From Escherichia coli (lineage in GTDB: Bacteria; Pseudomonadota; Gammaproteobacteria; Enterobacterales; Enterobacteriaceae): a stretch of 64,000 nucleotides of DNA. The position numbers are program-made. How positions within the stretch are numbered: position 1 is the first letter of the stretch; every line of letters begins with the position of its first letter. Shown here in pieces: positions 29,001-32,000 of the stretch. Location: assembly GCF_030013205.1 (NCBI RefSeq), contig NZ_CP122648.1. The stretch is one strand, 5' to 3'.

Positions 29001-32000
29001 CAGCGTGCTATGTGCGGGCTATCAGGCGTTTTATTCTTACTCCGCACCGCATATGCGGGTGATGCGTGATCTGATAAAGCAGCATCGTTCTCCCATGGAG
29101 CTGATGACGATGCTGCGGTGACGTGAGCTTAAACGGGCTGCCCCTGATGCGACATCCGCGTCGCCAGCGGTAGCCAGCACAGCACGATCAACAATCCCAT
29201 TAAGGTCATCAACAACCCCAGGCTGCCCTGACCGGTTTGCGGCAACATCGCAGAGAGCGACGCCAGCACGCCGGAACCAATGTTTTGCAGACCGCCGACC
29301 AGCGCGCCAGCCGTGCCCGCCAGGAAGGGGAACGGTTCCATCGCGCCGCTGGTCGCCAGCGGAAACAGCATCCCGGCACCGAAAAAGAACAGCGCGGCGG
29401 GAACGAGCAGCGTCCAGACATTCATCACGCCAAACCAGTCGGGGATCCACATCAGCAAGCCAGCCAGCAGGCAGCAGATAACCGACTGCCACATTAACGT
29501 TGAGAAGCGTTTATTAGGACGTCCGGCAAACCATGCCCCAAAAAATGCCGCCGGAATCGGCAGAATAAACAAAATACTGACCGTCATACTGCTCAGCCCT
29601 AACACCGCGCCCATCAGCACGCCGGAGCAGGCTTCAAAGGCGGCAATCCCGGCCAGACCGCCAATCAGCATCAGCAAATAACAGTTAAAACCGCTGTTAC
29701 CGAAAAGCGTTTTATAACTGGTAAGCAGGCGTGTGCGCGGTGCGTCGACCGGACGCGTTTCTGGCATCCAGCGGGCCATACTGAAGGTCACACCGGCACA
29801 AAGTACCAACAAAAAGAGATAACAGGCGCGCCAGTTCCACATCGTATCCAGCAGACCGCCGATTAGCGGTGCGAGCAACGGACTGACAAGAATTCCCATG
29901 TTTAACAGGCTATTAGCATGGCGCAACTGTGTCCGTTCATATAAATCACGCGGCAAAGTACGCGCCATTACGCCGCCAACGCCGGTGCCCATCCCCTGCA
30001 TCGCGCTGGCGGCAATCAATACTGTCAAACTGGAGGTCGTGACCGCGACCAGCGTTGCCAGCATAAAAATGGACATTCCGACGAGGATCACCGGTCGGCG
30101 ACCCACACGGTCGGAAATCGGGCCATAAAACAGCTGTGAGACACCGTAAGTCAGCAGATAAGCGCCCATTACGCTCTGCACCGCCCCTTCACGGACGTTG
30201 AGATCGCGCGCCATATCGGCAATAGCTGGAATATAAATGGTTTGCGCCATCTGACCGACGGCCACGAGTAATACCAACATCAATAACAAATTGACGTTTC
30301 TATGCCTTTTCATTATCACGGATGCTTTTATAAAAATAATTAGAATAAGTCACTACGCATTCCCATAAATGCGGGAGAGGAATCTATCACATTGATAAAT
30401 GTTAGCCAGATATACGCCAGGAATGGGGAATTGTTTAGCGGCAGAATATGTAAACAAAAGCGGCAATAAATGTTGCCGGGAGGGATTACGTGCGAACAGT
30501 AACCCTCTCCCTGAAAGGACGAGGGGGAAACCACCGTTCCCTTTCAGAAAATGAGCTAAACATTGCACGGGACGGTCCCCTCGCCCCTCTGGGGAGAGGG
30601 CTAGGGTGAGGGGCACAGGCAGCGCAGGTGCAAACATTCTGCTGGTAGAAGAAGCCCCCAACTCCAACTCACACGCTAAATATAAAAGGGGAGCGGTTAC
30701 CCGCTCCCCTTTAGTGCGACTTGAATCTGAATTACTTCAGGTATTTCAGAACAGCATCAAGCAGTTGCAGTGCTGCAACAATGAGTTTGAGGATAAGAAT
30801 GGCGATATCCACCAGGCTCATACGCGTCTCCTGTGGTTCAGGAGCACTGCCAGCTGACGTACCTTTCCGCTGCCTGTTGCCAGCTGTTGTGCACGCGGTA
30901 TCTCAAGGAGAAACGTTGTGCTTGTTGACATAACACAGTGTGCTCACGCGGGGTTAAGGCGCTGACGGCACCACCCGTTTCAGCCAGGACTTAGTGCGCC
31001 GGGTAACGATGCGGCCCCCACATAACACATTGCGTACAGTGATATTATAGAAGTTTACTGTATAAATAAACAGTAATATTTGAACAAAACGCAAACTGTG
31101 AACGATACTCAACTATGCACTAAATACGTCAAAATTCGTGCCGAAATTGCGCGTTCTGTGCGGAACACGTATACTTTCTGTGTTGACATAATACAGTGTG
31201 CTTTGCGGTTACCAGCCGCAGGCGACTGACGAAACCTCGCTCCGGCGGGGTTTTTTGTTACCTGCAATTTAGTTCAAAACGTGATCAACCCCTCAATTTT
31301 CCCTTGCTGAAAAATTTTCCATTGTCTCCCCTGTAAAGCTGTGCTTGTATAAATATTGTTAAACACAAAACCAACAAGGTCCCCAATGACTACTTCCATG
31401 CTCAACGCAAAACTACTACCAACTGCGCCATCCGCCGCAGTGGTCGTCGTGCGTGTGGTGGTGGTCGTCGGCAATGCGCCGTAGGGACTGGAACAACACA
31501 CGATTCCAAAACCCCGCCGGCGCAAACCGGGCGGGGTTTTTCGTTTAAGCACCTCCCGGAAAGTCGGCCCAGAAGAAAAGGACTGGAGCATGGCAAGTTC
31601 GGGCACAACATCGACGCGTAAGCGCTTTACCGGCGCAGAATTTATCGTTCATTTCCTGGAACAGCAGGGCATTAAGATTGTGACGGGCATTCCGGGCGGT
31701 TCTATCCTGCCTGTTTACGATGCCTTAAGCCAAAGCACGCAAATCCGCCATATTCTGGCTCGCCATGAACAGGGCGCGGGGTTTATCGCTCAGGGAATGG
31801 CGCGCACCGACGGTAAACCGGCGGTCTGTATGGCCTGTAGCGGACCGGGTGCGACTAACCTGGTGACCGCCATTGCTGATGCGCGGCTGGACTCCATCCC
31901 GCTGATTTGCATCACTGGTCAGGTTCCCGCCTCAATGATCGGCACCGACGCCTTCCAGGAAGTCGACACCTACGGTATCTCTATCCCCATCACCAAACAC

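What the first reader, a model, noticed from the sequence alone, without database searches (positions are those of the whole stretch)
30470..30660. Unexplained GC-rich element with nested inverted repeats between emrD and tisB
A segment carries ccctgaaagg...cctttcag and cccctc...ctggggagaggg...gagggg inverted repeats that can form extended hairpins. It lies in an intergenic region where the only ORFs are short antisense artefacts. It could be a structured sRNA, a BIME-like element or a protein-binding site.
Basis: seen in the sequence. Interest (0 to 1): 0.35.

Follow-up and report, generated by a model that had tools for sequence, protein, structure and literature searches.

The report
Known BoxC repeat pair beside tisB
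The GC-rich hairpin-forming segment between emrD and tisB is an inverted pair of BoxC repeats (also called PIT or TMECO elements), a long-known dispersed intergenic repeat of E. coli with no demonstrated function, so the finding is real but ordinary.

Summary
Window 30487-30643 is a 157-nt GC-rich block with nested inverted repeats, far beyond chance.

It is not a new element. The right half (30578-30613, + strand) matches the published BoxC/PIT/TMECO consensus exactly. It is one base from four K-12 copies. The left half (30503-30525, - strand) is a second copy that has lost its third G-block. The two copies and their linkers are homologous to BoxC pairs at cpxA-yiiM and rhaA-rhaD.

The block is a strain-variable insertion:
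- About 28% of 5,426 complete E. coli genomes carry it.
- About half carry only a REP element at that spot, as do other Escherichia species.
- About 20% lack the whole tisB/istR module.

This very site (E. coli SE11, E24377A) is already listed in the supplement of Holder et al. 2015.

No Rfam family, promoter or terminator signal maps to the element. It lies downstream of the tisB terminator and of the small gene ysdE.

Best reading: a dispersed, probably selfish or neutral repeat that inserted next to an ancestral REP and is now decaying. It has no demonstrated local function. Novelty: already known. Interest: low.

The parts
30487..30643 (.). The whole inserted BoxC mosaic (157 nt; a 1-nt T ambiguity at the junction allows 30486-30642). 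It is present in the window strain and absent from the K-12, O157 and outgroup alleles.
   Evidence: Three-way and seven-way alignments of the emrD-tisB spacer. The length bookkeeping fits: +157 for the insert, -18 for loss inside the REP, giving the observed +139 bp.
30490..30502 (.). Left terminus: the distal 13 nt (GTGCGAACAGTAA) of the family's tail-to-tail linker 's'.
   Evidence: It matches the fepB-entC, ygfF-gcvP and cpxA-yiiM linkers (GTGCGAACATTAACCCTC) with 1 mismatch.
30503..30525 (-). Left BoxC copy, degenerate. It keeps the C-block CCCTCGTCC, the loop TTTCA and the G-block GGGAGAGGG. The 12 nt of loop 2 plus the third G-block are missing.
   Evidence: It fails the strict TMECO pattern. 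In register with the cpxA-yiiM and rhaA-rhaD left copies it lacks exactly CCCTCACCCCGG. The same deletion is in all alleles checked at this locus.
30526..30577 (.). 52-nt head-to-head linker between the two copies. It contains CCTTTCAG, which pairs with the loop of the left copy.
   Evidence: It is homologous, at about 65% by eye, to the linkers of the cpxA-yiiM and rhaA-rhaD BoxC pairs.
30578..30613 (+). Right BoxC/PIT/TMECO copy, complete: CCCTCGCCC-CTCTG-GGGAGAGGG-CTA-GGGTGAGGG-G.
   Evidence: It matches the published consensus CCCTCNCCC N3-6 GGGNGAGGG N3 GGGNGAGGG. It is 1 nt (loop 2 CTA versus TTA) from MG1655 TMECO nos. 9, 16, 19 and 22.
30613..30638 (.). Full tail-to-tail linker 's' following the right copy (GCACAGGCAGCGCAGGTGCAAACATT).
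   Evidence: About 22 of 27 aligned positions match the family linker GAACAGGCCAGCACTGGTGCGAACATT, with one gap.
30644..30668 (.). Probable remnant of the ancestral REP (GGTAG...GCCCCCAACTCCAAC), with about 18 nt of the REP core lost.
   Evidence: Alignment to the intact REP of O157, K-12 and other Escherichia species. The alignment is gapped, so this is an inference.
30685..30712 (-). Intrinsic terminator of the tisB transcript (context, not part of the repeat). The element lies downstream of it.
   Evidence: 12-bp stem followed by a T-run on the - strand. It is conserved in all alleles that have tisB.
30395..30469 (+). ysdE small-protein gene (context). It ends 17 nt before the insertion.
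   Evidence: RefSeq annotation of identical and related genomes.

Best explanation
The segment is a BoxC mosaic, also called a PIT or TMECO element. It consists of two oppositely oriented copies of the about 36-nt C-block/G-block/G-block repeat, joined head-to-head by a 52-nt family linker and flanked by the family's tail linker.

Shown here:
- It inserted immediately next to the GTAG end of an ancestral REP element, in one lineage of E. coli.
- It has since been inherited, mostly vertically, by about 28% of sequenced strains.
- The left copy lacks exactly one 12-nt block+loop unit.
- The neighbouring REP has lost about 18 nt.
- In the window strain the left copy's loop carries four clustered substitutions that make it resemble another BoxC subtype.

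Inferred:
- The 12-nt loss arose by slippage between the near-identical blocks, and the clustered substitutions by ectopic gene conversion. Together these mark the element as decaying.
- It has no locus-specific function. It behaves as a selfish or neutral dispersed repeat that is tolerated in a transcriptionally insulated pocket, downstream of the tisB terminator and of ysdE and upstream of a second hairpin before emrD.
- Its only likely activity is physical. As single-stranded DNA or RNA it can fold into stable hairpins, a long cruciform-type hairpin between the two copies, or the intrastrand triplex shown in vitro for near-identical oligonucleotides. Such folding would promote local replication slippage and rearrangement.
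For: Identity:
- Exact match to the published TMECO consensus, 1 nt from four K-12 copies.
- The K-12 copy with the same core lies next to fabI, where BoxC was first described (the fabI/envM history is from my own knowledge).
- Flanks and linkers are shared with eight other BoxC loci.
- There is a median of 14 related places per E. coli genome, and 15 in the window's own strain.
- The same site in SE11 and E24377A is listed in Supplementary Table S8 of Holder et al. 2015, and it maps between tisB and ysdE/emrD.

Derived insertion:
- 1,509 of 5,426 genomes carry it.
- About 2,800 genomes carry only the REP.
- E. whittamii, Escherichia sp. E1V33 and two other Escherichia-type species representatives have the REP and no BoxC. 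None of 80 Enterobacteriaceae emrD loci has a TMECO between tisB and emrD.

Decay:
- A 12-nt block deletion is shared by all alleles.
- The REP is reduced to a remnant.
- Four clustered substitutions match subtype B.

No functional signal:
- No Rfam hit reaches even 21 bits.
- No promoter-like or terminator-like site lies inside the element.
- The central stem position shows no compensating changes among 18 distinct copies.

Literature:
- PIT elements showed no promoter or terminator activity and no in vivo effect on replication.
- TMECO loci are more variable than control loci.
- The triplex was seen only in single strands in vitro (PMC4666352).
Against: - The motif is extremely well conserved among copies and occurs in distant proteobacteria (PMC4666352). 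That is hard to reconcile with pure neutrality and hints at a conserved interacting factor or mobilising activity.
- No transposition machinery, target duplication or donor copy was found, so the way it arrived is unknown.
- The absence of local function is inferred from the presence/absence polymorphism and from negative reporter data on other copies. It was not tested at this locus.
- No expression data were available here.
Confidence: 0.85

Rival explanations
1. It is a cis-acting RNA structure. Transcribed as the 3' end of ysdE (+ strand) or by read-through from tisB (- strand), the stable hairpins would block 3' exonucleases or insulate emrD from upstream transcription, as REP elements do.
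For: It occupies the position of a REP, a class known to stabilise upstream mRNA (established knowledge). The folds are strong. It lies 17 nt after the ysdE stop and between two - strand terminator-like hairpins.
Against: It lies downstream of a strong intrinsic tisB terminator. About 72% of strains do without it. The stem centre is a G-A mismatch or G-T wobble with no compensating changes. PIT elements showed no terminator activity and no effect on RNA polymerase (PMC4666352).
Confidence: 0.08
2. It encodes a trans-acting small RNA.
For: It is structured, GC-rich and intergenic, and it neighbours a locus rich in small RNAs (istR at 31127-31256).
Against: No Rfam family matches. There is no promoter-like site and no terminator of its own. 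It is multi-copy and shows a presence/absence polymorphism. It is absent from all other Escherichia species examined.
Confidence: 0.02
3. It is a binding site or DNA-structure signal for a host factor, for example a nucleoid protein, gyrase or helicase, or a replication or recombination enzyme that recognises triplex, G-quadruplex or cruciform DNA.
For: The three 9-nt blocks are nearly invariant across copies and across distant genera, while the loops vary. The G-strand has four G-runs. REP/BIMEs, the closest analogues, do bind IHF, gyrase and Pol I (established knowledge).
Against: The literature searched reports no binding protein. In vivo DMS footprinting did not detect the triplex (PMC4666352). 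Individual sites are dispensable.
Confidence: 0.05

Closest known systems
BoxC / PIT (potential intrastrand triplex) / TMECO repeats of E. coli (Bergler 1992; Bachellier 1996; Hoyne & Maher 2000, 2002; Holder et al. 2015, PMC4666352)
   Same: The right copy matches the consensus exactly and is 1 nt from K-12 copies. The flanks and linkers are the same. It is strictly intergenic. It shows the inverted pairing of two copies described for 5 of 18 K-12 sites. It varies between strains. This very site is listed for SE11 and E24377A.
   Different: The left copy lacks the third G-block, so it cannot form the triplex. Loop 2 of the right copy is CTA, which is neither of the two published subtypes (TTA, CCG). 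The pair is the head-to-head arrangement with a 52-nt linker, rather than the tail-to-tail one that is commoner in K-12.
REP / BIME elements
   Same: Both are intergenic, palindromic, multi-copy and built as mosaics of alternately oriented units with conserved linkers. In other strains the same spot holds a REP.
   Different: There is no sequence similarity to the REP consensus. No associated RAYT-type transposase is known. Copy number is about 20 per genome rather than several hundred.
REPINs (REP doublets forming hairpins, mobilised by RAYT; PMC3116915)
   Same: Both are inverted doublets of a short repeat that can fold into one long hairpin (z about -3.3), and both are present or absent between close relatives.
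   Different: No cognate transposase is known. The arms are only 78% complementary. No evidence of recent movement was found: the best non-allelic match is 79-84% identical.
MITEs such as ERIC/IRU
   Same: It is of similar size (about 150 nt), intergenic, able to fold, and polymorphic as an insertion.
   Different: There are no terminal inverted repeats: the ends are direct repeats of the 's' linker. There is no target-site duplication beyond an ambiguous single T.

Membership tests
BoxC / PIT / TMECO | Sequence CCCTCNCCC N3-6 GGGNGAGGG N3 GGGNGAGGG | tested here: met
   The right copy, 30578-30612(+1), matches the pattern and is the only match in the 64 kb. It is 1 nt from MG1655 copies 9, 16, 19 and 22.
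BoxC / PIT / TMECO | The same three-block pattern in the second (left) copy | tested here: not met
   The left copy (30503-30525, - strand) has blocks 1 and 2 only. The 12 nt of loop 2 plus block 3 are deleted. It is a degenerate member.
BoxC / PIT / TMECO | Dispersed multi-copy family confined to intergenic DNA | tested here: met
   There is a median of 14 (up to 25) related places per E. coli genome and 15 in the window strain. Only 34 of 69,728 places are on plasmids. All nine loci inspected are intergenic.
BoxC / PIT / TMECO | Shared flanking and linker sequences beyond the 36-nt core | tested here: met
   The 5' flank gcac..ggtc, the 3' linker gaacaggccagcactggtgcgaacatt and the head-to-head linker are all recognisable.
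BoxC / PIT / TMECO | Paired sites combine a subtype A copy (loop 2 TTA) with a subtype B copy (loop 2 CCG) | tested here: inconclusive
   The right copy is A-like (CTA). The left copy has lost loop 2. Its loop 1 is B-like in the window strain but A-like in the majority allele.
BoxC / PIT / TMECO | Formation of an intrastrand purine-motif triplex by the single strand | not testable with these tools
   It was shown by CD and NMR for near-identical oligonucleotides in PMC4666352. It was not detected in duplex DNA or in vivo there.
REP / BIME | REP consensus palindrome with a GTAG end | tested here: not met
   The element has no REP motif. The REP is the alternative occupant in K-12, O157 and the outgroups, and only a remnant is left at 30644-30668.
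MITE | Terminal inverted repeats and a target-site duplication | tested here: not met
   Comparison of filled and empty sites gives only a 1-nt ambiguity. The termini carry a direct, not inverted, repeat of the linker.
Known RNA families (Rfam 15) | Covariance-model match at the gathering score | tested here: not met
   There is no hit at the gathering score. The best sub-threshold hits on the element itself are chance miRNA-type matches of 20.6 bits or less.
Intrinsic terminator | GC-rich hairpin followed by a T-run | tested here: not met
   The terminator-like sites lie at 30712-30685, 30478-30461 and 30814-30800 (- strand) and 31239-31251 (+ strand). None is inside 30487-30643.

The most novel reading that the evidence does not exclude
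BoxC elements may be organised as BIME-like mosaics: A-copy, 27-nt tail linker, inverted B-copy, about 52-nt head linker, A-copy, and so on. They may be non-autonomous mobile units moved by an unidentified enzyme, landing at or beside REP elements. On this reading, the emrD-tisB, cpxA-yiiM and rhaA-rhaD polymorphisms are captured insertion or replacement events at REP/BIME sites. The window element, which starts and ends in the same linker, would be one excised period of such a mosaic.
Probability: 0.12. Interest if true: 0.5.

Novelty: already known. Interest (0 to 1): 0.12.

Why it matters
For annotation, it matters mainly as a warning. This GC-rich, strongly folding, strain-variable block is a catalogued repeat, and it should not be called an sRNA, a regulatory site or an ORF.

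The open point is a modest one. BoxC has had no known function or spreading mechanism for 30 years. Filled-versus-empty sites such as this one give clean junctions that a genome-wide census could use to work out how the family moves and decays. Here that means an insertion abutting the GTAG end of a REP, slipped block deletions and conversion tracts.

Tried and rejected
- Rfam at gathering and permissive thresholds gave nothing relevant.
- The promoter and terminator scan found no site inside the element.
- ORFs overlapping the element (104 aa on the - strand; 51 and 39 aa on the + strand) were rejected. They run through a segment that most strains lack and are made of repeat sequence.
- The MITE reading was rejected. 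There are no terminal inverted repeats and no target duplication.
- General REP adjacency of BoxC was rejected as a rule. Six K-12 BoxC loci have no REP-like motif within 300 bp, although all three polymorphic pairs examined share their site with a REP or BIME.
- The covariation test of the hairpin found that the central position varies (G or T) without compensating change in the partner blocks. The MAFFT alignment of the 36-mers put its gaps at the 5' end and was not used for pair counts.
- Spread by phage or plasmid was not supported. Only 3 of 50,697 phage records have a partial match. Many of the top E. coli 'plasmid' hits are megabase-sized records (probably mislabelled chromosomes), and most other matches are on replicons of Sinorhizobium, Azospirillum and Rhizobium.
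- A search for a near-identical donor copy in E. coli found none. The best non-allelic matches are 79-84% identical.
- Literature searches for later functional work on BoxC/PIT/TMECO and for ysdE found nothing beyond Holder et al. 2015.

Full report
**What is there.**
The window is E. coli. The emrD-tisB region is 100% identical to strain 2012C-4221. RefSeq annotation of that genome places the genes as follows:
- emrD at window 29129-30319 (-)
- the 24-codon gene ysdE at 30395-30469 (+)
- tisB at 30732-30821 (-)
- istR at 31127-31256 (+)

The flagged interval 30470-30660 lies between ysdE and the tisB terminator hairpin (30685-30712).

A longer 27-nt pair, 30500-30526 / 30577-30603, is 78% complementary. 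The segment folds better than dinucleotide shuffles: z = -2.1 and -3.1 as RNA, and z = -3.1 and -3.5 for the 120-nt core as DNA. The 37-nt right-hand motif is unique in the window, with 0 expected by chance.

**Identity.**
The right-hand motif reads CCCTCGCCC-CTCTG-GGGAGAGGG-CTA-GGGTGAGGG-G (30578-30613). It fits the consensus CCCTCNCCC N3-6 GGGNGAGGG N3 GGGNGAGGG. Holder et al. 2015 (PMC4666352) give this consensus for the E. coli 'TMECO' triplex motif. They equate TMECO with the BoxC repeat of the 1990s and the PIT elements of Hoyne and Maher.

The motif differs by one loop base from MG1655 copies 9, 16, 19 and 22 in their Table 1. Copy 9 lies between fabI and ycjD. From my own knowledge, that is where BoxC was first noticed (envM = fabI).

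The left-hand repeat (30503-30525, - strand) is a second copy, CCCTCGTCC-TTTCA-GGGAGAGGG. It lacks exactly the 12 nt of loop 2 plus the third G-block, when put in register with the left copies at cpxA-yiiM and rhaA-rhaD.

**Family anatomy.**
I laid out nine loci anchored on the core. The repeat extends beyond the 36-mer in three ways:
- A-type copies have a 5' flank gcac..ggtc.
- They have a 3' 'tail' linker, gaacaggccagcactggtgcgaacatt. In tail-to-tail pairs this runs straight into an inverted B-type copy.
- Head-to-head pairs are joined by a 52-59-nt linker. It is 52 nt here and at cpxA-yiiM and rhaA-rhaD, where it is recognisably homologous.

Read from the left, the window element consists of:
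1. 3-4 unassigned nt
2. the last 13 nt of the tail linker (30490-30502)
3. the degenerate inverted copy
4. the 52-nt head linker (30526-30577)
5. the complete copy
6. a full tail linker (30613-30638)
7. 4-5 unassigned nt

It therefore begins and ends in the same linker, like one period of a mosaic. At cpxA-yiiM a third, truncated copy precedes the pair. This organisation resembles BIMEs, but the unit is different.

**Polymorphism and polarity.**
K-12 and O157 have a 139-bp shorter spacer, in which a canonical REP sits at the same spot. Across 5,426 complete E. coli genomes the alleles divide as follows:

| Allele at the emrD-tisB spacer | Genomes | Share |
|---|---|---|
| BoxC mosaic | 1,509 | 28% |
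| REP only | about 2,800 | about 52% |
| No tisB/istR module at all | about 1,080 | about 20% |

The REP-only count is 4,337 genomes covering the K-12 allele minus the BoxC carriers, which also pass that coverage threshold. In the third class, about 100 bp with a decayed REP joins ysdE to ivbL.

Among 80 emrD loci from species-representative genomes, E. whittamii, Escherichia sp. E1V33 and two other Escherichia-type representatives carry the REP. None has a TMECO between tisB and emrD. So the REP is ancestral and the BoxC mosaic is a derived insertion of 157 nt. Its junction abuts the TGGTAG end of the REP, with only a 1-nt ambiguity and no target duplication.

To its right, GGTAG...GCCCCCAACTCCAAC looks like the REP with about 18 nt lost. 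That accounts exactly for the 139-bp length difference. The alignment is gapped, so this is an inference.

Carriers are 96.6-100% identical over the element. The best non-allelic matches are only 79-84% identical. That argues for one old insertion inherited by descent rather than recent movement.

**Already catalogued.**
The majority-allele core, with its distinctive CTA loop, appears 14 times in Supplementary Table S8 of Holder et al., for example in SE11 and E24377A. The SE11 coordinates fall between tisB and ysdE/emrD. This site has therefore been in the literature since 2015.

**Signs of decay and exchange.**
- All alleles at this locus share the 12-nt block deletion in the left copy. This is what slippage between the near-identical blocks would produce.
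- The window strain differs from the majority allele at six positions within the 178-nt variable segment. Four are clustered in 8 nt of the left copy. Three of those four convert its loop region from the A-type (CCCCTTTGGGG) to the B-type (CCCTTTCAGGG) sequence.
- I read that cluster as ectopic gene conversion from another BoxC copy.
- Other BoxC pairs are likewise strain-variable: 161 genomes carry the cpxA-yiiM pair and 787 the rhaA-rhaD pair.

**Function.**
Nothing points to a local role:
- No Rfam family matches.
- No promoter-like or terminator-like site lies inside the element.
- The element is downstream of the strong tisB terminator. A second - strand hairpin (30478-30461) separates it from emrD.
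- Among 18 distinct copies, the central stem position is G or T with no compensating change in either G-block.
- Most strains lack the element.

The literature reports no promoter or terminator activity for PIT elements and no in vivo effect on replication. It reports triplex formation only in isolated single strands, and higher sequence variability around TMECO loci (PMC4666352). No later functional study turned up.

The best-supported reading is a selfish or neutral dispersed repeat, tolerated in an insulated intergenic pocket. Its main consequence is physical: hairpin, cruciform or triplex folding of single strands that favours slippage and rearrangement. The high conservation of the three blocks, and matches in Sinorhizobium, Rhizobium and Azospirillum replicons, leave room for an unknown interacting factor. 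Phages essentially lack the element.

**Verdict.**
The element belongs to a known family and this site is already listed. Interest is low. The residual value lies in clean insertion junctions and decay products, which a genome-wide census could use to work out how BoxC mosaics arise.

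Noticed in passing
window 30392-30469: ysdE starts with ATA in the window strain and in O157, but with ATG in K-12. An in-frame TTG lies one codon upstream. RefSeq still assigns the same protein accession.
   Followed up: partly
window ~30480-31253; L007 2660-2765; L017; L019: The whole tisB/istR toxin-antitoxin module, together with the REP/BoxC site, is absent from NU14 (a uropathogenic strain), E. albertii and one Escherichia sp. About 100 bp containing a decayed REP replaces it. About 20% of complete E. coli genomes match only the emrD-proximal 160 nt.
   Followed up: partly
L005 1420-1640 (cpxA-yiiM); L006 1429-1640 (rhaA-rhaD); L097; L098; L099: At both other strain-variable BoxC pairs examined, the same intergenic site holds a REP or BIME in strains without the BoxC pair. 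At rhaA-rhaD a REP also sits 27 nt from the pair. Six K-12 BoxC loci have no REP nearby, so this is not a general rule.
   Followed up: partly
window 30503-30525 versus L015 and L016: Four clustered substitutions convert the left copy's loop from the A-type to the B-type sequence in the window strain's minor allele (only 18 records are at least 99% identical). This looks like ectopic gene conversion between BoxC copies.
   Followed up: partly
window 6043-6145: The Rfam ES036 (CssrF) hit at 6068-6110 (-) lies in the linker between two inverted REPs (about 6047-6075 and 6111-6145), that is, inside a BIME. The match probably reflects the repeat rather than a dedicated sRNA gene.
   Followed up: partly
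window 30461-30478 (- strand): A terminator-like hairpin with a T-rich tail overlaps the ysdE stop codon on the opposite strand. It lies between the element and the emrD promoter region, and it is conserved in all alleles and outgroups aligned.
   Followed up: no
L008 1827-2100 (strain RM13752): This assembly has a 32-nt deletion that removes half of the tisB terminator, followed by hundreds of bases almost free of G, and a truncated ilvB. It is probably an assembly or sequencing artefact.
   Followed up: no
one search hits (Sinorhizobium, Rhizobium, Azospirillum, Shinella replicons); (Campylobacter phages A18a and A11a): BoxC-like matches occur on megaplasmids of alpha-proteobacteria. A 44-nt match at 95.5% identity occurs in two Campylobacter phage records. 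The latter is odd for a GC-rich enterobacterial motif.
   Followed up: no
window 511-591 and 16240-16312: Rfam hits to AsdA (antisense to dnaA) and to the ROSE_2 thermosensor. My reading, not checked against annotation, is that ROSE_2 lies in the ibpA leader and that the window spans the region from dnaA to ilvB.
   Followed up: no
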